DNA of 64,000 nt, taken from Myxococcota bacterium. Its GTDB lineage: Bacteria; Myxococcota_A; UBA9160; UBA4427. The stretch covers positions 84,463-148,462 of the forward strand of contig CBDCWV010000017.1 in the NCBI GenBank assembly GCA_965223565.1, given 5' to 3'. This document shows, piece after piece, positions 1,876 through 9,896 of this stretch. Each line of letters starts with the position of its first letter. The first letter of the stretch is position 1. Below the pieces are notes generated by a model. The model was not told the DNA's origin. It worked only from the letters and a program-made list of their open reading frames with translations, and ran no database searches. Position numbers and translations under genes: made by a program.

Positions 1876-3054
1876 TTGTGGGAAAATAAACACGTCGCTC
1901 TTCGTCGCGCGCGCGACGATCTCCGACGGAGAAGCCACGCATTGACGGAAGACACTTCGAGCAAGCCGGCCGGGGAGGCCGACGCCGGAAGCGGCCAGAA
2001 GGTGAAGCTGAAGCTCACGCTCTCGCCCCAGGCCGAGAAATACGCCCGCCGAGATGCCCCGCTCGAGGCCCGCCAGATGGCGGCGCGTGGCGCCCTGCCA
2101 CTCGAGCCGGTCGAGCTGGCGACGGTGCTCTTCGTGCTGGCGAACGACGAGGACGCCTCCGTCAAGGAGACCGCGCGCACGAGCCTCGAATCGCTCCCCG
2201 AGCAAGTACTCAAGACGGTCTTGTCGGGACCCGCCCACCCGGCGCTGCTCTCGTTTCTCGCCCGCATCCACAAGGAGACCGAATCCCACTGCGAGGCCAT
2301 CGCACTCAACCCGGCGAGTGACGACACGACGATCGCCTGGCTGGCCAGCCTGCCCCATCCCCGCGTCGTCGATATCATCAGTCAGAACCAAGAGCGGATG
2401 ATGCGGCACGAGGAGATCGTCGACGCACTCGGCGCGAATCCCCTGACCGGTCGGGCCGTGATCGAGCGGATCTTGACCTTTCTCGGCCTCGAAGAGCGCG
2501 CTGTCGACGACGCAGACGATGCCACGGTCGACGAGGACCAGGCGGAGGCGGCCGTCCTCGAGCTGCTCGGTGAAGAGATGGGCGACGTCGCTCGATTGCT
2601 CGCACAAGAGGGCGGCGACGACCTCGAGGACGAGGAGCTCGAGGGCAGCCTCTACGCGGCCGTCCAGAAGATGACGGTGATGCAGAAGATCAAGCTGACC
2701 CGCGTCGGCGGCAAGGAAGCCCGTGCCCTGCTCATCAAGGACCGGAACCGGATCGTCGCCTCCGCCGTGCTCGGCAGCCCCAAGCTCACCGAGACCGAGG
2801 TGATCGGCTTCGTCCAGAATCGCTCGATCGGCGACGAGCTGCTGCGAATCATCGCGAACAACCGCGACTGGACGAAGAACTACCAGATCAAGCTGGGCCT
2901 CGTGACGAATCCCAAGACGCCACAGCCGCAGGCGATCAAGTTCATCAACTACCTCCAGGACAAGGACCTGCGCGCACTCATGAAGAGCAAGGACGTTCCG
3001 AGCAACATCAGCGCCCAGGCTAGGCGCATCCTCGGCAAGAAGGGAAAGCTCTGA
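1876..3054 (+). CDS. HEAT/ARM-like helical repeat protein, function unknown; first gene of a coupled trio
   Basis: 392-aa ORF with high GC3. It shows recurring helical repeat segments (LPEQVLKTVL, HPALLSFLA, NPLTGRAVIERIL, SPKLTETEVIGFV, NPKTPQPQAIKFINYL) and an acidic linker. An alternative TTG start is possible at 1942. Its stop overlaps the next ATG (TGATG at 3052-3056). Confidence 0.6.
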   Translation: MWENKHVALRRARDDLRRRSHALTEDTSSKPAGEADAGSGQKVKLKLTLSPQAEKYARRDAPLEARQMAARGALPLEPVELATVLFVLANDEDASVKETARTSLESLPEQVLKTVLSGPAHPALLSFLARIHKETESHCEAIALNPASDDTTIAWLASLPHPRVVDIISQNQERMMRHEEIVDALGANPLTGRAVIERILTFLGLEERAVDDADDATVDEDQAEAAVLELLGEEMGDVARLLAQEGGDDLEDEELEGSLYAAVQKMTVMQKIKLTRVGGKEARALLIKDRNRIVASAVLGSPKLTETEVIGFVQNRSIGDELLRIIANNRDWTKNYQIKLGLVTNPKTPQPQAIKFINYLQDKDLRALMKSKDVPSNISAQARRILGKKGKL

Positions 3055-4067
3055 TGAAGGGCGTCAACGCGCGGATCCTGCTCTGGGGGATCGCCGGCAG
3101 TGGAAAGTCGACGACGCTCCGGACGATCCACGACAAGCTGCGATCGGACCTGCGCGGCGATCTCCGCCTCGAGCCGACGCGACTCGACCCGACGCTCCAA
3201 TACGAAGTCCTCCCGATCACGCTCGGCGAGGTCGCGGGCGTCGCGACCGAGCTCGAGATCGTCGCCGTACCGGGCGCCGACGAGCATGCGATGACCCGCA
3301 AGCAGCTGCTCGACGGTGTCGACGGAATCATCCTGCTGATCGACAGCAGCCCCGAGAAGATCGAAGCGAACATCCCCGCGATCGAGGAGCTCAAGACGTC
3401 GCTGGCCGCCTACGGTCAGCGCCTCGATGCATTCCCGGTCGTGCTCCAGTACAACAAACGGGACGTCGCCGATCCCTTCGCGATCGAGGATCTCCATCGT
3501 CGCATCGGCCTCGATCAGACGGCCGTCTTCGAGACGATCGCAACGACGGGCCACGGCATCCTCGCCACCCTCACGACGATCTCGAAGCATGTCGTGCGCG
3601 CGCGACGCGGTACGTCGCAGTCGAGCGGGTCGGCCGCAGTCACGTCCGATGGCGCCCCAGCCGACATCCACGCAACGACGGCAGCCGTGATCGCGTCGAA
3701 CGCCGACCTCGAGCTGCTCGAGCCGGACGAGGCCGAAGGAGCAGCCGAATCGATCGCGGATCCAGCTGCCGGTACGGTGCCTGCGGAGCCCCACGACGTG
3801 CTCGAAGCGGCGATTCTCGCCGAGGGCGAGGCACTCGCCGACACCGACCCGGCCGGCGACGCCGGGTTCCCGAACGTCGACGACACCGCGAAGGCCGACG
3901 CGTCGCCGCTCGGACCCGAGCTCCGCGTCGTCTCGGTCGGTCGCGCCGAGCTCGCCGCGGACGGCGGTGTCCGGCTGCCGCTGGTCCTGGGCGACGCCGC
4001 GGGCCGATCTCGGAGCGTCGTTCTCTCGCTGCGTCTGGATGCGCTCGCGTCGGAGCTCAGCGACTGA
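3054..4067 (+). CDS. MglA-family Ras-like small GTPase paralog with an approximately 150-aa acidic C-terminal extension
   Basis: P-loop GIAGSGKST. The segment DPTLQYEVLPITLGEVAGVATELEIVAVPGADEH aligns to MglA [34 protein letters not shown]. G4 motif QYNKRD is identical to MglA; G5-like ETIATTGHG. Residues at the MglA Arg53 and Gln82 positions are Pro and Ala. Confidence 0.8.
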   Translation: MKGVNARILLWGIAGSGKSTTLRTIHDKLRSDLRGDLRLEPTRLDPTLQYEVLPITLGEVAGVATELEIVAVPGADEHAMTRKQLLDGVDGIILLIDSSPEKIEANIPAIEELKTSLAAYGQRLDAFPVVLQYNKRDVADPFAIEDLHRRIGLDQTAVFETIATTGHGILATLTTISKHVVRARRGTSQSSGSAAVTSDGAPADIHATTAAVIASNADLELLEPDEAEGAAESIADPAAGTVPAEPHDVLEAAILAEGEALADTDPAGDAGFPNVDDTAKADASPLGPELRVVSVGRAELAADGGVRLPLVLGDAAGRSRSVVLSLRLDALASELSD

Positions 4068-6349
4068 TGCGTCGGCGTCTCGGCATCTGGGGGGCATCGG
4101 AGGAATCGCTCCGCCTGCTGCGCCTGCTCGCGGGCAACCCCGAGGTCGAGGTGATCCGGATCTTCGACGACGACGCGAGCGTCGGGCTCGCGCGCGCGCG
4201 CGGTCTCGGCGGCGCCCTCGCCCACGACGTGGCCCCCTTGCTCGTCGACGAGGTCGATGCGTTCTTCGCGCCCGCCACGGAATACGACGCCATCATCGAC
4301 GCCCGCGGCGATTTCGCGCAGCACGCACCCGAAGGTCCGCGCGCGGCGCTCCAGGTCGTCACGCCGCTCACGGCTCGGCTGCTCTGGGGCTACGGCGTCG
4401 CACCGCGCGACCGCAAGGCGGAGCTACTCCAGGCGCTGCACGAGGTCGTCGAGTCCGTCGAGCTCACGATCGACGGCGACGAGCTCTTCAAACGCATGCT
4501 CGAGATCGCGGTCGGCGTGACGGGCGCCGAGGGCGGCAGTCTCATGCTGCTCGATCCCGAGACACAGGTCCTTCGCATTCGCGTCGCGACGGGCGTCGAG
4601 CCCGAGCTCTGGCCGAAGATCCGCGTGGCACTCGGTCAGGGGATCTCGGGTCGGGTCGCCTCCGAGGGAAGGTCGATCCACCTGCGCGGTCGCGCGGACG
4701 GCGCGAAATTCGATCTGATCCGCGAGCGCGTCGACGTCGAGTCCGCGCTCTGCGTACCGCTCATCCACAGCGGTCGTGTGCTCGGCGTATTGAACGTGCA
4801 CCACGCGACCCAGCCGGACGTCTTCTCGGAAGAAGACCTTCGCTTCATGGAGCAGCTCGCGCGACTCGACGCCCAGATCATCGCGCGCGCCCAGGAGCAC
4901 GAACGCCTGCGCAGCCAGGCTGCTCGCTACGGCGCGGTCCAGGAGGTCCAGCGCATGCTCCGGGGCTCTGCCGTCCTGTCCGACCGCCTGCGCGAGTTCT
5001 GCGCCTACATGGCGGAGCGCGCCGGGCACGGTATCGCACAGCTCTACCTGCGCGAAGCCGACGGCGGGCTGCGACTGGCTGCGACGTCTCTCAAGGGCGG
5101 CGGCTTCGGCGGCGAGTACCGGCTCGAGCCCGGACAGGGGATCGACGGCGAAGCGATTCGCACCCGCGAGCTCTGCGTGCTCCGCCGCGAGGATGCACGC
5201 ATCGGCTATGCCGCCCTCCCCCTGGTCGCCGGCAAACAGCTCGTGGGTCTTCTGTCGATTCAGGTCGGTCCCGACAGCGAACAGAATCGCGGCACGCTCG
5301 AGGGCTGGCAGGAGATCGCGGCGGCCGCTGCCGACGCGATCGCCCGCAGCGACCACGAGGCGCGCCTCGCGAGTCGCGCGGAGCGCATCAATGCGATCAA
5401 CGAGACCTCGATCCGCATGCTGTCCTGTACCGATCCGAGCGAGGTCGCACGTCTGGCGACGTCGTCGGCCGCCATGGTGCTCGAAGCGGACCACGCGGTC
5501 CTGCGGCTTCAGAACCCAAAGACGCGACGTTATTCGATCCGTTCCTACTTCGGTGCCGCCGACGGCGAGGCCCAGGAGGCCCTCTTCCGACTCGACAAAG
5601 CCGTCACGGTCGACACGATCCGGCGTCGCACGCCCCACCTGATTCCCGATGCGAGCCTCGATCCGAAGCTCGGGGAATTCGTCGACGAGATGCGCTCGGT
5701 CCTCGCGGGCCCGATCAAGCGCGAAGGTGAAGTGATCGGGACGATCGCCGTCTACGACAAGGTCGCCCTCGACCGATTCTTCGCCAGTCGCTTCGACGAC
5801 GAGGACCTGCTGGTCTTCGGACGCTTCGTCTCCTACGTCGAGCGTGCGATCGACCATGCCCTCTCCCACCGCGAGAACCAACGCAATCGCAACTTCGACG
5901 ACGAGACCGGGCTACCGAACGCGGGCTACCTCGCGAAACGGACGGACGAGGAGATCGCACGTGCGGCCGGCCGCGAGAACGCACTCGCACTCTGCATCTG
6001 CCGGCTCGAGAACCGCGCCGAGCTGACGGCGGAGGCGAACGCGGCCCACGTCGGGCGGGTGATCCGGTGCCTGGCGGAGAGCCTGCAGACCCACCTGCGC
6101 GAGTTCGACGTGCTCGCGCGACTGGACAAGGACGAATTCGCCGTCCTGCTGCCCGAGCCGGGTCGCACGCCGGGGGAACGCGTCTTCGAGCTCGCCCGCG
6201 CGGTTGCCGACGCGATCGCGAAGAACGAGGCCCTGAACCAGCCGATCCGAGTCGGCCTGGCCTTCGGCTATGGCATCCATCCGGCGGATGGAGAAGATCG
6301 CGAAGCCCTGCTGGCGCACGCCCGCGAGCCACGTATTCGTATGGTCTAG
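4067..6349 (+). CDS. Multi-GAF protein with a C-terminal degenerate GGDEF domain (DKDEF) and a retained RxxD I-site
   Basis: GAF-like blocks are present, e.g. GAEGGSLMLLDPETQVLRIRVATG...GISGRVASEG...ALCVPLIHSGRVLGVLNVHH, followed by two more. The C-terminus reads DETGLPNAGYL...REFDVLARLDKDEFAVLLPE, a GGDEF fold with GG replaced by DK (nt 6125-6139) and RxxD (REFD) five residues upstream. The start overlaps the previous stop (TGATG at 4065-4069). Confidence 0.8.
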   Translation: MRRRLGIWGASEESLRLLRLLAGNPEVEVIRIFDDDASVGLARARGLGGALAHDVAPLLVDEVDAFFAPATEYDAIIDARGDFAQHAPEGPRAALQVVTPLTARLLWGYGVAPRDRKAELLQALHEVVESVELTIDGDELFKRMLEIAVGVTGAEGGSLMLLDPETQVLRIRVATGVEPELWPKIRVALGQGISGRVASEGRSIHLRGRADGAKFDLIRERVDVESALCVPLIHSGRVLGVLNVHHATQPDVFSEEDLRFMEQLARLDAQIIARAQEHERLRSQAARYGAVQEVQRMLRGSAVLSDRLREFCAYMAERAGHGIAQLYLREADGGLRLAATSLKGGGFGGEYRLEPGQGIDGEAIRTRELCVLRREDARIGYAALPLVAGKQLVGLLSIQVGPDSEQNRGTLEGWQEIAAAAADAIARSDHEARLASRAERINAINETSIRMLSCTDPSEVARLATSSAAMVLEADHAVLRLQNPKTRRYSIRSYFGAADGEAQEALFRLDKAVTVDTIRRRTPHLIPDASLDPKLGEFVDEMRSVLAGPIKREGEVIGTIAVYDKVALDRFFASRFDDEDLLVFGRFVSYVERAIDHALSHRENQRNRNFDDETGLPNAGYLAKRTDEEIARAAGRENALALCICRLENRAELTAEANAAHVGRVIRCLAESLQTHLREFDVLARLDKDEFAVLLPEPGRTPGERVFELARAVADAIAKNEALNQPIRVGLAFGYGIHPADGEDREALLAHAREPRIRMV

Positions 6350-6452
6350 CACTTTCCCGGACACATCCGGGGCCAATTGGCCACCTAACGGGAGAGGTTC
6401 GAGACCGCGCTGCCGATGGTGCGCACTCGAGCACCACCCGGAGGGTTTCGCC

Positions 6453-7139
6453 GTGTCCCGCATCCTCGTCTCATTGGTCGCCCTCCTGGCGACCGCGGCA
6501 TCGTCCGCGACCGCGATCACCTACTCGGACGGTACGTTCCTCGACGCCGACTGGACGGGCGTCAAGGTCGTCGATACGACCGCGAGTGCCGACGCCACGT
6601 TCGTCGCCGTACAGGTCGCGACCAACGGCAACCCCGACGCCTATCGCCGTGTCGAGCACGGCTATGGCCCCGGCTCGATCGGAATCCGCCACTTGAGAGA
6701 CGACGCGACCTACGACCCCGGTGCGCTCGGCGCGATCGCAACGCTCGACTACTCGTTCGACGCGATCCATCTCGATCCACCGACGAATCAGGCGGTCGCT
6801 TTCAACATCCTGCTCTTCCAGTCGGACTCGACCTATATCGCTGCGGGGCACAACGCCTTCGACGCCGTCTGGACGCCGTTCGGCGGCGCTGGGCTCGTCG
6901 CGGCCGATTTCTCGCTCTACGCCGGGACGGGCCCGTCCAATCCGGATTTCTCTCCGAGCGGCGGGGTGATCACGGCCGGCTATGCGACACGCAACACGAA
7001 CTCCGGGGGCGCGACGCGAATCACGCGGTTGGGCGGAATCGACAACTGGAGCGTGACGTTCAACCCCATCCCGGAACCGACAGCCGCGTGTCTGATCGGA
7101 ATTGGACTCGCTGGTCTCGCGTCATTGCGCCCTCGCTGA
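6453..7139 (+). CDS. PEP-CTERM sorting-domain secreted protein
   Basis: GTG at 6453 follows GGAGGG. Signal peptide VSRILVSLVALLATAASSATA. The C-terminus IPEPTAACLIGIGLAGLASLRPR shows PEP, a TM helix and a basic tail. Confidence 0.75.
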   Translation: MSRILVSLVALLATAASSATAITYSDGTFLDADWTGVKVVDTTASADATFVAVQVATNGNPDAYRRVEHGYGPGSIGIRHLRDDATYDPGALGAIATLDYSFDAIHLDPPTNQAVAFNILLFQSDSTYIAAGHNAFDAVWTPFGGAGLVAADFSLYAGTGPSNPDFSPSGGVITAGYATRNTNSGGATRITRLGGIDNWSVTFNPIPEPTAACLIGIGLAGLASLRPR

Positions 7140-7370
7140 GGCGAGCGCGGAGTCGAGCTCCGGACCGCCTCTCGAACTCCTGAGCTTCTGCTGATGTTCC
7201 CTTTCGTGCACTCTAGGGACAATTCCCTTGAGACACGCATGCCCTCGAGGGTTGCCTGCCGGCAGCCTCCTACAGGCAGTATGCGTGACCACGAGATTGC
7301 GTACGTGCCGCCCACACGTCGCGATCCATTCGCGCCGCGAGGTCCACCTCCGACGCGATTGAGGACTGAC

Positions 7371-9896
7371 ATGACGGAGCGATGGGTAGGATGGTCAGAT
7401 CGTCGAACGAAACGCATATCGACACCGCAGCGGACCGATCGCCTCGCGCAGCTTCCCGCACGAAACGCAATCCTCACCTTTGCCGTCGGCGCCGCGATCG
7501 CTCTACTCGCCAGCGCCGTCTCGGCCAAGACCTTCACCATCAACTCGACCGCTGACGCGGTGGACAACAACCCCGGCGACGGGTCGTGCTTCACGGGCAA
7601 CATCATCGTCTGGAGCATCGATCCCCCAATCAGTGAAGGCGAATGCACGTTACGAGCGGCGATCCTCGAAGCGAATCTTCTGGGCGGCGCCGACGAGGTG
7701 CATTTCGACGGCCGCCTCCCGGCGCCCGGCGGATTCGTCACGATCGTCCCGGGCAGCCCTCTGCCCTTTGTGACCGAGACACTTCAGATACGAGGCTCGA
7801 GCCATCCGTCCTACTCGGGCTCTTCGGCGTTCCCCACGCCGATCATCCATCTTTCGGGTCTTGCGCTCGCACCCGCCACACTGGCCTCGGGGATCGTTTT
7901 CTCCGTACCCGGCGCCCGATCCTCGTACGTCGAAGGACTCTCGATCGCGGGGTTCCCAGGCTGGGGCATCGAGATCCAGGGAGGACCGGCATTCCAGAGC
8001 GCGTCGATCCGAGTCGAGGGGAATCACATCGGTATCCGCAAGGGCCAATTCGTCGACGGCAACGGCCAGGGTGGCATCCTGATTTCGCAGGCGAACGAGA
8101 ACGCCATCGGACGGGTCTGCGTCGCGACGTGCGCGGGACGCGGCAACGTGATCTCCGGCAACGGCGGCCACGGGCTTCGCGTCGACGGCGAGTTCAACCT
8201 GGTCGGCGGCAATCGCATCGGTACGACCGTCGACGGCCTCGCCGCCGTGACCGCGTCCGGAATCCCAACCGGCAATTCGGGCAACGGCATCTGGATCAGT
8301 GACGGAGGTTCGAACGTGGTCGGGAGCATCGAAGCCCTGCCCGGTGGCGTCGTGCTGGTCGACAACGGCAACCTCGTCTCGGCCAATGGACTGAACGGCG
8401 TGACCGTCAACGGCGGGGACGACCATCGCGTGATCGGAAACCGAATCGGAACAGATCTGAACGGAAGCCATGCGCTCGGAAACGCGAGGTCAGGCGTCGT
8501 AGACGAGGCCTTCGAGACGGTCGTTGGCAGTGAAGGCCTCGGCTCGAATCTGATCTCCGGCAACTCGAGATACGGAATCTTGAACAACGGCGAATTCGCT
8601 CGCTACGCACACAACCGAATCGGGTTGAGCGCGAGCGGTCTCGGCACGATTCCGAACGGGCTCGGCGGCATTCTCGACGAGGGCTTCGAAGACACCATCG
8701 CCAACAACGCGATCGGAGGGAATTTCGGCTTCGGTATCGAGCTCTTGGGCACGGAGACGAGCGTCGTCGACAACTACGTCGGGACGGACGAAGCCGGAGC
8801 GGACTTCGGGAATCGGCTTGCTGGCATCATGGCCGGCGCCGGCGAGTACGATATCCAGAGAAACGTCGTCGGCCACAACGGCGGGGCTGGAATCTACGTC
8901 TCCAGCAACACCTTCGCCGTCGATCTCGGACACAATTGGATCGGAACCAATTCGGCCTGGCAGGATATCGGGAATTCGCTCGATGGCATCGAATCCCATT
9001 CGAAGTTCCGCATTGCCACGTTCGCCAACCGGATCGGGTTCAATGGAGGGCACGGCATCGCATTGCGAGCCGCTCCCAAGGACACGACCGGCGAATTCGC
9101 TGCCACGGGAAACTACATCGGAACGAATCCCGACGGCGACGATCTCGGCAACGTCGGCAGTGGCGTCTTCGCGGCCACAGGACCGAACGCACAGGTCTTG
9201 ATCGGCCTTCGACCCGCGACACCAGCACCCTACTCGCCTCCGGCGTGGGGAAACGTGATCGGCTGGAATGGAGGAGACGCGGTCACCATCCTGAGTGGTG
9301 CGGGAGCCGAGGTCGTCGGTCTCTTCGCTCGCGGCAACGGCGGTCAGGCCATCGATCTCGCGAACGACGGTCCGACGCCGAACGATCCTGGCGATGCGGA
9401 TACGGGCCCGAACGATCTACTCAATACGCCCGAGTTCGATATCTCTGCGACGAGATACGATGACACGACCGGCGAGCTCGTGATCCGATACCGCGTCGAT
9501 TCGACGATCGGGTCGCTCTCGGACGACGCCATCGTCGACTTCTACCTGTACGACCCGCTGAGCGACCCAGCGGAGCAGCTCGGTCGATGGGTCGGATTCG
9601 AGGTCGTGCCCGAGGCGGACCTCGGAATCGATCGTACGGTTCGCATCCTGCCACCGGCAGGATCGTTGGTTCCCTTCGACGGCGCAGGCTCTATCTTCTC
9701 GACCCTCCGCGCGACGACCACCCGTTCGTCGGGGACGAGCGAGCTCTCGACAGAATGGGTGCCCGTCCCCGAGCCGGCCTACGGCCTCGCACTCGCAGCG
9801 GGCGGATTGCTCCTTGCTGCTTCGCGATTCGGATCGGAACGAACGCCTACTGTCGATAGGCCTCGATCAGGACGTCGGAGGTCTCGGGTCGCATGA
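7371..9896 (+). CDS. Large secreted parallel beta-helix repeat protein with a CSLREA-like N-terminus and a PEP-CTERM anchor
   Basis: Signal-like [21 protein letters not shown], then [20 protein letters not shown]...[12 protein letters not shown]. There are many N-x-I-G-x-N/G-type beta-helix repeats and a [18 protein letters not shown] motif. The C-terminus [24 protein letters not shown] is followed by an Arg-rich tail. The ORF is open from 7194, so the start is uncertain. The 3' end overlaps convergent sat by 50 bp. Confidence 0.7.

What the first reader, a model, noticed from the sequence alone, without database searches (positions are those of the whole stretch)
3054..4067. MglA paralog missing both catalytic residues (Arg53 to Pro, Gln82 to Ala) and carrying a 150-aa acidic tail
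Seen in sequence: the switch regions align closely with MglA (DPTLQYEVLP... vs [10 protein letters not shown]...; VPGADEH vs VPGQVFY; QYNKRD identical). The intrinsic Arg finger position is Pro, and the catalytic Gln position is Ala. The P-loop and G4 motif are intact.

Established knowledge: substitutions at Q82 and R53 in MglA abolish MglB-stimulated hydrolysis and lock the GTP state.

Inference: this protein probably binds nucleotide but cannot hydrolyse it by the MglA mechanism. It would then be a constitutive 'on' scaffold or a pseudo-GTPase, which fits the absence of MglB. The low-complexity acidic extension (from about nt 3610) ends in a short conserved-looking beta segment (LRVVSVGRAELAADGGVRLPLVLG).
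Basis: partly seen in the sequence, partly recalled or inferred. Interest (0 to 1): 0.6.

Follow-up and report, generated by a model that had tools for sequence, protein, structure and literature searches.

The report
Catalytically dead MglA-like GTPase clade
This gene encodes a relative of the bacterial polarity switch MglA that has lost all three residues needed to hydrolyse GTP, and it belongs to a large conserved lineage of such dead switches that sits between a helical-repeat protein and an inactive-looking c-di-GMP signalling protein.

Summary
ORF 3054-4067 (337 aa) aligns without gaps to Myxococcus MglA. Arg53 is Pro, Gln82 is Ala, and Gly21 (Ras Gly12) is Ala. The P-loop, switch-I Thr, switch-II Gly and NKRD are intact.

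These changes mark a whole clade. In 154 homologues the Arg-finger column is Pro in 151, the Gln column is never Gln, and the Gly21 column is never Gly.

The gene is the middle of a translationally coupled trio. Upstream is an ARM/HEAT-like helical-repeat protein. Downstream is a GAF-GGDEF protein with a destroyed A-site and a kept RxxD I-site. This trio is conserved across the organism's class.

Outside the class, three cassette-linked loci (two with the repeat gene, one with all three genes) carry an intact Arg/Gln GTPase, which fits a derived loss.

Among 45 cassette GTPases from the class, only 19 keep the P-loop Lys, P-loop Ser/Thr and NKxD together. These motifs were lost several times independently, yet G-domain dN/dS stays mostly near 0.1-0.26.

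The best reading is a pseudo-GTPase adaptor. The window copy is probably still nucleotide-bound. Hydrolysis and binding were not measured. It is a new variant of a known kind.

The parts
3054..4067 (+). Pseudo-MglA gene, 337 aa, stop at 4065-4067
   Evidence: ORF list. MglA is the best PDB match by sequence at E 7e-33. MglA is also the best fold match, with TM-score 0.81 normalised to the target.
3054..3617 (+). G domain, residues 1-188
   Evidence: The AlphaFold2 model is mostly at pLDDT 80-90. It is 75% identical on average across 20 family members. dN/dS against genus relatives is 0.17-0.24.
3087..3110 (+). P-loop GIAGSGKS, residues 12-19. A14 (nt 3093-3095) sits at MglA Gly21, the Ras Gly12 position
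   Evidence: Alignment. In the family this column is Glu 107, Ala 21, Asp 9 and never Gly. Lys18 is kept in 148 of 154.
3186..3194 (+). Switch I Asp45-Pro46-Thr47. P46 (nt 3189-3191) replaces the intrinsic Arg finger, MglA Arg53
   Evidence: Pro in 151 of 154, and Thr/Ser47 in 150 of 154.
3264..3278 (+). G3 / switch II AVPGA, residues 71-75. A75 (nt 3276-3278) replaces the catalytic Gln82
   Evidence: Ala 137, Gly 11, Ser 4, Gln 0 of 154. Gly74 is kept in 148.
3453..3464 (+). G4 motif NKRD, residues 134-137, intact
   Evidence: Asn, Lys and Asp are each kept in 152-153 of 154.
3618..3785 (+). Acidic disordered linker, residues 189-244
   Evidence: pLDDT below 50 over 189-243. 10 Asp/Glu and no Lys/Arg, and 13% mean identity.
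3786..3839 (+). Conserved acidic amphipathic helix HDVLEAAILAEGEAL, within residues 245-262
   Evidence: Modelled as a helix at 246-260. 57% mean identity against 13-16% for its flanks. The motif is found mainly in the window's own family f1.
3840..3917 (+). Second variable acidic spacer, residues 263-288
   Evidence: pLDDT below 50 over 261-286. 16% mean identity.
3918..4064 (+). C-terminal beta domain, residues 289-337 (LRVVSVG...LSLRLDAL)
   Evidence: Three strands and a short helix at pLDDT about 80-85. 73% mean identity. A profile search of 1.84 billion proteins finds it almost only at the C-terminus of MglA-like GTPases.
1942..3054 (+). Upstream partner gene: a 370-aa all-alpha helical-repeat (ARM/HEAT/LRV-like) protein. 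The longest ORF starts at 1876
   Evidence: 72-83% identical homologues, none with a Pfam domain or a functional name. The AlphaFold2 model is all helical with pLDDT 78.7. Fold matches to armadillo and HEAT repeats are only weak. It lies directly upstream of the GTPase in every cassette.
3052..3056 (+). TGATG: the stop of the repeat-protein gene overlaps the ATG of the GTPase by one base
   Evidence: Sequence read.
4065..4069 (+). TGATG: the stop of the GTPase overlaps the ATG of the GAF-GGDEF gene by one base
   Evidence: Sequence read. The same abutment is seen in L005 and L006.
4067..6349 (+). Downstream partner gene: a 760-aa GAF-GAF-GAF-GGDEF protein
   Evidence: Pfam GAF_2 at 1e-34 with 3 stretches, and GGDEF at 2e-15. 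74-80% identical in cassette homologues.
6098..6139 (+). REFD (RxxD I-site, nt 6098-6109) followed five residues later by DKDEF in place of GGDEF (nt 6125-6139)
   Evidence: The A-site is degenerate in all 14 cassette partners examined (for example DRDEF, DGDEF, EEAEF, SEGKF). The RxxD is kept in all of them.

Best explanation
ORF 3054-4067 encodes a pseudo-GTPase that descends from Group-1 MglA.

The G domain keeps the MglA fold. In this copy it also keeps the nucleotide-binding motifs: the P-loop, switch-I Thr, switch-II Gly and NKRD. It has lost all three residues on which MglA hydrolysis depends: Gly21 to Ala, the intrinsic Arg finger Arg53 to Pro, and the catalytic Gln82 to Ala. It therefore cannot hydrolyse GTP by the MglA/MglB mechanism.

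The most likely role is a non-cycling adaptor in a three-protein module made from one translationally coupled operon. The partners are an ARM/HEAT-like helical-repeat protein and a GAF-GGDEF protein. The GGDEF has a destroyed cyclase site but keeps its RxxD site, so it is probably a c-di-GMP receptor rather than a cyclase.

The conserved switch surfaces would be the docking sites. The small C-terminal beta domain, held on a long acidic disordered tether, would be a second docking or dimerisation site.

Shown: the substitutions, their conservation across the clade, the fold, the cassette, purifying selection, and repeated loss of binding motifs in sister lineages.

Inferred: absence of hydrolysis, a permanent nucleotide-bound state in this copy, physical contact among the three proteins, and c-di-GMP binding.
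For: 1. Gapless alignment to MglA places Pro, Ala and Ala at Arg53, Gln82 and Gly21. The fold search puts MglA first.

2. Q82A abolishes intrinsic and GAP-stimulated hydrolysis. R53A and G21V strongly reduce it (PMC3199381).

3. In 154 homologues the columns are Pro in 151, never Gln and never Gly.

4. The degenerate proteins form one clade with SH-aLRT 100 and a stem of 0.52 changes per site. Their nearest outside neighbours are L021, L019 and L060. These have intact DRT/PGQ, a comparable linker and C-terminal segment (a weak profile hit for L021, by eye only for L019 and L060), and the same upstream repeat gene. L060 also has the GAF-GGDEF gene.

5. The cassette is conserved across the class with TGATG overlaps.

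6. Among 45 cassette GTPases from the class:
- Arg is present in 0 and Gln in 1.
- P-loop Lys is kept in 34, P-loop Ser/Thr in 38 and NKxD in 29.
- All three are kept in only 19.
- The tree needs at least 5 changes of this state.
- All 12 members of the sister family f11 are eroded.

7. G-domain dN/dS is 0.09-0.15 in six of nine eroded pairs (0.26 and 0.40 at worst). These include pairs that lack the P-loop Lys. It is 0.17-0.24 for the window protein.

8. The partner's GGDEF A-site is degenerate and its RxxD is kept in all 14 cassettes.

9. The genome has a separate canonical mglB-mglA pair, so this paralogue is not the cell's MglA switch.
Against: No biochemistry was done, so hydrolysis and nucleotide binding are untested.

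In the window's own genus the binding motifs are nearly invariant: NKRD about 100%, Lys18 96%, Thr/Ser47 97%. Nucleotide therefore probably still matters here, and a trans-acting activator cannot be excluded.

A Gln or His three residues after the lost Gln (VPGAxDQ/H) is present in 141 of 154 members. It could in principle act as a relocated catalytic residue.

Contact among the three proteins is inferred only from gene order and coupling. No complex model could be made.

The 'quick' tree has many unresolved forks and the root is not inferred, so 'derived from an active ancestor' rests on outgroup logic.
Confidence: 0.7

Rival explanations
1. It is a working GTPase with a non-canonical mechanism. 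The catalytic groups would come from elsewhere. One candidate is the conserved Gln/His at position 78, three residues after the lost Gln. Another is an Arg or Asn supplied in trans by the repeat protein, the GAF-GGDEF protein or the protein's own C-terminal domain. This would resemble Rap/RapGAP, or GTPases with a hydrophobic residue in place of the catalytic Gln.
For: The P-loop, Thr/Ser47, Gly74 and NKRD are almost invariant in the window's own family. Gln/His78 is present in 141 of 154. The C-terminal domain carries conserved Arg residues (R320 nearly invariant, R327 invariant). dN/dS is low.
Against: The Gly21 position is Glu, Ala or Asp and never Gly. In Ras and MglA this change itself blocks stimulated hydrolysis.

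Sister lineages in the same cassette lost the P-loop Lys (to Val, Ile or Thr), the P-loop Ser/Thr or NKxD at least five times and remain under purifying selection. The conserved function of the clade therefore does not need hydrolysis.

Gln/His78 is kept in 7 of 11 lineages that lack the P-loop Lys. This fits a structural or interface role better than catalysis.

The Arg residues of the C-terminal domain are not conserved in its distant homologues L025 and L030.
Confidence: 0.2
2. It is a decaying relic: a paralogue that lost its function and is drifting towards a pseudogene.
For: The catalytic residues are lost. The stem branch is long. Overall identity (51-64%) is lower than for its two neighbours (72-83%).
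Against: More than 500 full-length homologues exist. Synteny and translational coupling are conserved across a class. The G domain is 75% and the C-terminal domain 73% identical, and the low overall identity comes from the linkers. dN/dS is 0.09-0.26 in all but one compared pair (0.40). All but one of the 46 class-level copies compared read as full-length open frames.
Confidence: 0.03
3. It is an Arf/SR-beta-type GTPase, as the database names suggest ('signal recognition particle receptor subunit beta', 'ADP-ribosylation factor-like protein').
For: Pfam Arf hit at 23.4 bits, just above the 22.3 cut-off. JGI and NCBI give such names to homologues.
Against: PDB sequence search gives MglA at E 1e-32 and no Arf or SR-beta chain with E up to 1. 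In the fold search MglA scores E 6e-16 and the best Arf about 1e-7. The VPG motif in G3 and the tree place it with Group-1 MglA.
Confidence: 0.02

Closest known systems
MglA, Group 1 of the MglA family (Myxococcus xanthus, Thermus thermophilus; Wuichet and Sogaard-Andersen 2015, PMC4316618)
   Same: Same fold and a gapless alignment at about 33% identity. It shares the VPG core of the unusual G3 motif, the switch-I Thr, NKRD, and a basic alpha5 helix that includes the Lys185 equivalent. On the tree it joins the Group-1 radiation.
   Different: It lacks the Arg finger that the 2015 survey found in all Group-1 members, and the Gln found in all five groups. It also lacks Gly21. It carries a 149-aa acidic tail with a C-terminal beta domain. 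It is not coupled to MglB but to a helical-repeat protein and a GAF-GGDEF protein.
Bdellovibrio bacteriovorus MglA hub: MglA(Ser21, no MglB) with TPR protein Bd2492 and CdgA (PMC3983030)
   Same: This is an MglA proposed to be permanently GTP-bound because of a substitution at position 21, in a genome without MglB. It works with a helical-repeat protein and a degenerate-GGDEF c-di-GMP receptor (GVNEF) at a cell pole. The three component types match those of the cassette here.
   Different: Bdellovibrio MglA keeps Arg53 and Gln82 and is the cell's only MglA. Its partners are not encoded next to it. The repeat type is TPR, not ARM/HEAT-like. No homology between the partners was tested. Here the genome also keeps a canonical MglA/MglB pair.
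Cassette-linked MglA paralogues with intact catalytic residues and a related C-terminal beta segment (L019, L021, L060) or the profile-detected domain (L025, L030, P0279, P0289, P0366, P0379)
   Same: Same architecture: G domain, long linker and a C-terminal beta segment. L019, L021 and L060 have the same upstream repeat gene, and L060 also the degenerate GAF-GGDEF. The domain profile detects the segment in the second group and weakly in L021.
   Different: They keep DRT and PGQ, and some keep Gly21, so they are probably real GTPases. They lie outside the degenerate clade. None of them has been characterised.
Eukaryotic pseudoGTPases (for example the p190RhoGAP domains and AAGAB; PMC5593906, PMC12490416)
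   Same: A GTPase fold kept as a protein-interaction module after loss of the catalytic residues. Some also lose nucleotide binding ('class i').
   Different: They are unrelated lineages. The clade here is prokaryotic, is a stand-alone small G protein, and spans both states: binding motifs intact or eroded.
SofG, the second MglA-like GTPase of M. xanthus
   Same: An MglA paralogue that MglB does not stimulate.
   Different: SofG keeps the Arg finger, and this residue is needed for its GTPase activity in vitro. The window protein has Pro there. The genome's other paralogue (contig 10, L003) is a better SofG-like candidate, but this was not tested.

Membership tests
MglA family, Group 1 | Ras-like G domain most similar to MglA | tested here: met
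   PDB phmmer gives E 7e-33 to M. xanthus MglA, and the next non-MglA hit has E above 0.5. Foldseek puts MglA first at E 6e-16.
MglA family, Group 1 | Intrinsic Arg finger next to the G2 Thr, conserved in all Group-1 members (PMC4316618) | tested here: not met
   Pro46 in the window protein. Pro in 151 of 154 homologues, and Arg in 0 of 45 across the class.
MglA family, Group 1 | G3 motif TVPGQ with the catalytic Gln | tested here: not met
   The motif is AVPGA. The VPG core is kept, Thr78 is Ala and Gln82 is Ala. Gln is present in 0 of 154.
MglA family, Group 1 | Genomic coupling to a Roadblock/LC7 MglB (common but not universal) | tested here: not met
   The Robl_LC7 search of the genome finds hits on contigs 8 and 16 only, and none on contig 17. 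The contig-16 copy sits beside the canonical MglA.
MglA family, Group 1 | Phylogenetic placement with Group-1 sequences | tested here: inconclusive
   The clade joins the Group-1 radiation next to cassette-linked active paralogues. Groups 2-5 were not in the tree and the root is not inferred.
PseudoGTPase (GTPase fold without catalysis) | GTPase fold retained | tested here: met
   AlphaFold2 G domain mostly at pLDDT 80-90. TM-score 0.81 normalised to MglA.
PseudoGTPase (GTPase fold without catalysis) | Catalytic residues absent by sequence, as a conserved trait | tested here: met
PseudoGTPase (GTPase fold without catalysis) | No GTP hydrolysis in vitro | not testable with these tools
   This needs recombinant protein. 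The exact Q82A change abolishes hydrolysis in Thermus MglA.
PseudoGTPase (GTPase fold without catalysis) | Nucleotide-binding state, which sets the class | not testable with these tools
   The motifs are intact in this copy and eroded in 26 of 45 relatives across the class.
Arf / SR-beta family (names given by databases) | Significant, specific similarity to Arf or SR-beta | tested here: not met
   Pfam Arf scores 23.4 bits against a cut-off of 22.3. No Arf or SR-beta chain appears in the PDB sequence search at E up to 1.
SofG-type MglA paralogue | Conserved Arg finger needed for GTPase activity | tested here: not met
   Pro46. The SofG property is taken from PMC4316618.
Degenerate-GGDEF c-di-GMP receptor (the downstream partner) | A-site GG[DE]EF lost with the RxxD I-site five residues upstream kept | tested here: met
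   REFD-VLARL-DKDEF in the window. The same pattern is seen in 14 of 14 cassette partners. c-di-GMP binding itself was not tested.

The most novel reading that the evidence does not exclude
This is a class-wide prokaryotic pseudo-GTPase lineage, the first described for the MglA family. The switch fold has become a nucleotide-independent adaptor. In this reading it pairs with a pseudo-diguanylate-cyclase to form a c-di-GMP-responsive scaffold made of two 'dead' enzymes and a helical-repeat platform.

A bolder sub-reading concerns the window's own family. There, the tethered acidic helix (residues 245-262) might bind in cis to the basic alpha5 / beta2-beta3 pocket that the acidic C-terminal helices of MglB and RomR use on MglA (PMC6785124). 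That would hold the G domain in the 'on' conformation without a GTPase cycle. The co-occurrence test for this sub-reading was uninformative, so on its own it deserves only about 0.1.
Probability: 0.35. Interest if true: 0.75.

Novelty: new variant of a known kind. Interest (0 to 1): 0.62.

Why it matters
Bacterial small Ras-like GTPases are understood as switches driven by a GAP/GEF cycle. The 2015 survey of the family found the catalytic Gln in all five MglA groups.

This clade has hundreds of members in uncultured Myxococcota, and it has given up that cycle while staying under selection in a fixed three-gene module. It offers a natural series running from active GTPase, to hydrolysis-dead but binding-competent, to binding-dead. 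That series can be used to ask what a G-domain does when it no longer switches.

It also links MglA-type polarity proteins to c-di-GMP signalling at the level of an operon. The only earlier hint of such a link came from protein interactions in Bdellovibrio.

It also corrects misleading database names for the family, such as 'SRP receptor beta subunit' and 'Arf-like'.

Tried and rejected
1. Arf/SR-beta identity was rejected. The Pfam hit is marginal and MglA is far better by sequence and by fold.

2. NCBIfam gives only sub-threshold Obg and LepA fragments.

3. I asked whether the C-terminal domain occurs in other protein contexts.
- The word-based search returned only the same family.
- The profile search of 1.84 billion proteins returned almost only MglA-like GTPases and short fragments.
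- A few long repetitive proteins had multiple short matches, which I regard as low-complexity noise and did not follow up.

4. The fold search of the upstream protein gave only generic armadillo/HEAT matches, none with E below 0.001 and all with TM-score under 0.3. No specific family could be assigned.

5. The cis-helix idea was tested by asking whether the LExAILxE helix co-occurs with a basic alpha5. The basic alpha5 is present everywhere, including in lineages without the helix. The helix is largely confined to family f1. The test was therefore uninformative.

6. The pseudogene reading was rejected on dN/dS and synteny.

7. Two literature searches for a pseudo-GTPase or a GGDEF-linked MglA paralogue found nothing relevant.

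9. The AlphaFold2 output gives no coordinates or PAE. I could not tell whether the helix or the beta domain docks on the G domain.
Full report
**The observation**

The window holds an ORF at 3054-4067 on the + strand that encodes 337 aa. A phmmer search against all PDB chains returns only MglA as a significant hit. M. xanthus MglA scores E 7e-33 and Thermus MglA 5e-31; every other chain has E above 0.5. The alignment to M. xanthus MglA has no gaps, so window residue n corresponds to MglA residue n+7. This gives:

- Pro46 at the intrinsic Arg finger (Arg53)
- Thr47 at Thr54
- Gly74 at Gly81
- Ala75 at the catalytic Gln82
- GIAGSGKS as the P-loop
- NKRD (134-137) as G4

Ala14 occupies the MglA Gly21 position, which is Ras Gly12.

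The literature basis holds. In Thermus MglA, Q82A abolishes both intrinsic and MglB-stimulated hydrolysis. R53A and G21V strongly reduce hydrolysis, and all three mutants still bind MglB (PMC3199381). The window protein therefore carries all three 'GTPase-negative' changes naturally, including the exact Q82A substitution.

An AlphaFold2 model built on a 21-sequence alignment gives a confident G domain. Residues 189-243 and 261-286 are disordered. A helix lies at 246-260, and a three-stranded C-terminal unit at 291-333 has pLDDT about 80-85. Foldseek against PDB ranks MglA structures first, at E 6e-16 and TM-score 0.81 normalised to the target.

The tail (residues 189-337) has 28 Asp/Glu against 7 Lys/Arg and pI 4.05.

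**A clade trait, not a one-off**

More than 500 homologues of 310-385 aa, 53-64% identical, exist in public data. Where a taxon is named, it is uncultured Myxococcota or 'Deltaproteobacteria'. Many carry the misleading name 'signal recognition particle receptor subunit beta'.

Across 154 members the key columns are as follows:

| MglA position | Residues in the family |
|---|---|
| Arg53 | Pro 151, Arg 1 |
| Gln82 | Ala 137, Gly 11, Ser 4, never Gln |
| Gly21 | Glu 107, Ala 21, Asp 9, never Gly |
| P-loop Lys | kept in 148 |
| Switch-I Thr/Ser | kept in 150 |
| Switch-II Gly | kept in 148 |
| Asn, Lys, Asp of NKRD | each kept in 152-153 |

Conservation is modular: G domain 75%, linker 13%, helix 57%, spacer 16% and C-terminal domain 73%.

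**Genomic context**

The gene is the middle of three genes joined by one-base TGATG overlaps at 3052-3056 and 4065-4069.

The upstream gene encodes a 370-aa protein with no significant Pfam domain (one sub-threshold LRV_2 hit). It is all-alpha in the model (pLDDT 78.7) and gives only weak armadillo/HEAT-type fold matches.

The downstream gene encodes a 760-aa GAF-GAF-GAF-GGDEF protein. Its A-site reads DKDEF, and an RxxD (REFD) sits exactly five residues upstream.

The order nadC-birA-coaX-repeat protein-GTPase-GAF-GGDEF recurs on long contigs from other assemblies. The three-gene core recurs in every complete locus of the family.

The two neighbours are more conserved than the GTPase as a whole, at 72-83% and 74-80% identity.

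In all 14 cassette partners examined, the GGDEF A-site is degenerate and the RxxD is kept.

The repeat protein belongs to a family found in 359 of 401 sampled genomes of the phylum. Outside the window's class it stands without the GTPase or the GAF-GGDEF gene. In two genomes examined (L087, L095) it lies near panB and panC.

**The rest of the genome**

The assembly (6.8 Mb, 94% complete) has two further MglA-like genes.

- One is a canonical 196-aa MglA with DRT and PGQ. It lies directly downstream of a Roadblock/LC7 MglB on contig 16.
- The other is a paralogue with intact Arg and Gln on contig 10, next to a MeaB/ArgK-type gene.

No Roadblock gene lies on the window's contig. The pseudo-MglA is therefore an extra paralogue and not the cell's polarity switch. 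'Absence of MglB' is true only locally.

**Origin**

A profile of the C-terminal domain was searched against 1.84 billion proteins. It finds the domain almost only at the end of MglA-like GTPases. These fall into two kinds. Some have intact DRT/PGQ (L025, L030, P0279, P0289, P0366, P0379). Many diverse ones are degenerate.

Three loci from unclassified bacteria (L019, L021, L060) carry a GTPase with intact catalytic residues and a comparable linker and C-terminal segment. The profile scores this segment only weakly in L021 and not at all in L019 and L060. All three have a homologue of the repeat protein directly upstream, and L060 also has a degenerate GAF-GGDEF downstream.

On a maximum-likelihood tree of 85 G domains, the degenerate proteins form one clade with SH-aLRT 100 and a stem of 0.52 changes per site. 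Its first branch is a member that keeps Arg but lacks Gln (P0367). The nearest sequences across the stem are L021, then L019 and L060.

This fits an active, cassette-linked ancestor followed by loss of catalysis. The caveats are that the tree came from the 'quick' method, has many open forks, does not include MglA Groups 2-5, and is not rooted.

**Evidence that decides between 'locked on' and 'pseudo-GTPase'**

I fetched the gene downstream of the repeat protein from 46 genomes across the class; one gave no GTPase hit and one could not be aligned. Together with the window copy, that gave 45 cassette GTPases to compare:

- None has the Arg finger, one has Gln, and none has Gly at the Gly21 position.
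- The P-loop Lys is kept in 34. It is replaced by Val, Ile or Thr in the rest.
- The P-loop Ser/Thr is kept in 38. It is replaced by Leu, Arg, Ala or Gly in the rest.
- NKxD is kept in 29. The others read NHRD, NQRD, NRRD, NFRD, NHQD or NKRG.
- Only 19 keep all three elements, and the window protein is one of them.
- The tree needs at least 5 changes of the intact/eroded state. It needs 7 changes for the Lys alone.
- All 12 members of the sister family f11 are eroded.

These genes are not decaying. G-domain dN/dS between close pairs of eroded lineages is 0.09-0.15 in six of nine pairs, and 0.26 and 0.40 at worst. The low values include pairs that lack the P-loop Lys. For the window protein against its genus relatives it is 0.17-0.24.

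The conserved function of the clade therefore needs neither hydrolysis nor, in many lineages, canonical nucleotide binding. In the window's own family the binding motifs are almost invariant. This copy most likely still holds a guanine nucleotide that it cannot hydrolyse by the MglA route.

**Mechanism proposed**

I propose a non-cycling adaptor. The strongly conserved switch I, switch II and alpha2 surfaces (for example the invariant TRKQLL) would be fixed docking sites. The tethered C-terminal beta domain would be a second docking or dimerisation site. Together they would join the helical-repeat protein and the GAF-GGDEF* protein into one module.

Regulatory input would most plausibly come through the GAF domains or through c-di-GMP at the RxxD site, rather than through a GTPase cycle.

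These interaction steps are inferred from gene order, translational coupling and conservation. They are not shown.

The closest functional precedent is the Bdellovibrio pole hub. There an MglA is predicted to be GTP-locked by Ser21, in a genome without MglB. It works with a TPR protein and with the degenerate-GGDEF receptor CdgA (PMC3983030).

**Rivals**

*Non-canonical GTPase.* The catalytic groups could be relocated or supplied in trans, and this is not excluded for this copy. In its favour, the binding motifs are conserved, and a Gln/His three residues after the lost Gln is present in 141 of 154 members. Against it:

- The Gly21 substitution alone blocks stimulated hydrolysis in MglA.
- The binding motifs have eroded repeatedly in sister lineages.
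- Gln/His78 is kept in 7 of 11 lineages that lack the P-loop Lys.

I give this rival 0.2.

*Decaying relic and Arf/SR-beta identity.* Both are rejected.

**Comparison with what is known**

[quoted passage not shown] It also states that Groups 2-5 share GTPGQ, so the Gln is present in every group (PMC4316618). The clade here fails both catalytic criteria while keeping the Group-1-like VPG core and tree position.

Two literature searches found no description of a pseudo-GTPase branch of MglA, or of an MglA paralogue linked to a GGDEF protein in an operon.

I file it as a new variant of a known kind. By descent it is an MglA Group-1 offshoot. By sequence criteria it is a pseudo-GTPase.

**Limits**

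- No biochemistry was done.
- No complex modelling was possible, and the structure tool gives no PAE or coordinates.
- Every genome record that names an organism is a metagenome-assembled genome, and I saw no cultured representative.

Earlier first-stage notes on the same genome describe the trio and the DKDEF/RxxD site. I had reached both points independently and re-tested them.

Noticed in passing
window 4067-6349 (motifs at 6098-6139): The GAF-GAF-GAF-GGDEF protein has DKDEF in place of GGDEF and an intact RxxD five residues upstream. All 14 cassette homologues are likewise degenerate, including the one (L060) paired with an active GTPase. The 'dead' cyclase therefore appears to predate the 'dead' GTPase.
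   Followed up: partly
window 1942-3054; L087 5002-6120(-), L095 5003-6115(+): The helical-repeat protein belongs to an uncharacterised family found in 359 of 401 sampled genomes of the phylum. Outside the window's class it stands alone, without the GTPase or the GGDEF gene. In two genomes it lies close to panB and panC, and here it follows coaX. A recurring pantothenate/CoA neighbourhood is unexplained.
   Followed up: partly
G000 contig 10, L003 1402-2127: A third MglA-like paralogue with intact Arg and Gln and a short C-terminal extension lies next to a MeaB/ArgK-type GTPase gene. On the tree it groups with long-tailed paralogues from Anaeromyxobacter and a Myxococcales MAG. It may be SofG-like.
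   Followed up: no
G000 contig 8, 162465-165797: Two further Roadblock/LC7 hits lie about 3 kb apart. One scores 55.9 bits and the other is sub-threshold. They are away from any MglA-like gene and may be MglC-like.
   Followed up: no
P0367 (from the profile search): One clade member keeps the Arg (TRLDRTV) but lacks the Gln (VPGAAE), and it branches first in the degenerate clade. This fits Gln being lost before Arg. Conversely, L114 has Gln at the catalytic column (AAPGQSDQ) but no Arg or switch-I Thr.
   Followed up: partly
L016, L017, L022, L024, L026, L042, L044, L050, L064 and others: Many catalytically intact MglA homologues in Planctomycetota, Fibrobacterota, Zixibacteria, Ignavibacteria and Acidobacteriota carry C-terminal extensions of 100-300 aa that do not match this C-terminal domain. 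Tailed MglA proteins are common and varied.
   Followed up: no
L012, L014; P0153: Some cassette-bearing MAGs are labelled Spirochaetales or Spirochaetaceae. Their cassette proteins are 55-57% identical to the Myxococcota ones, and the same protein cluster is also named Myxococcota. These are probably taxonomic mislabels or mis-binning.
   Followed up: no
L108 (G233:C61:129250-130950): The GTPase hit in this same-family genome did not align at any G motif. The cause may be a wrong frame or ORF choice by my script, or a disrupted gene. It was left out of the counts.
   Followed up: no
L092, L093, L097-L100: In other genera of the class about 2 kb lies between coaX and the repeat-protein gene. 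In the window the two are about 250 bp apart. An extra gene has been inserted there or lost here.
   Followed up: no
window 6270-7139 and 7194-9896: Two adjacent secreted proteins end in PEP-CTERM-like sorting signals (IPEPTAAC... and VPVPEPAYG...). The larger one is rich in beta-helix-type repeats.
   Followed up: no
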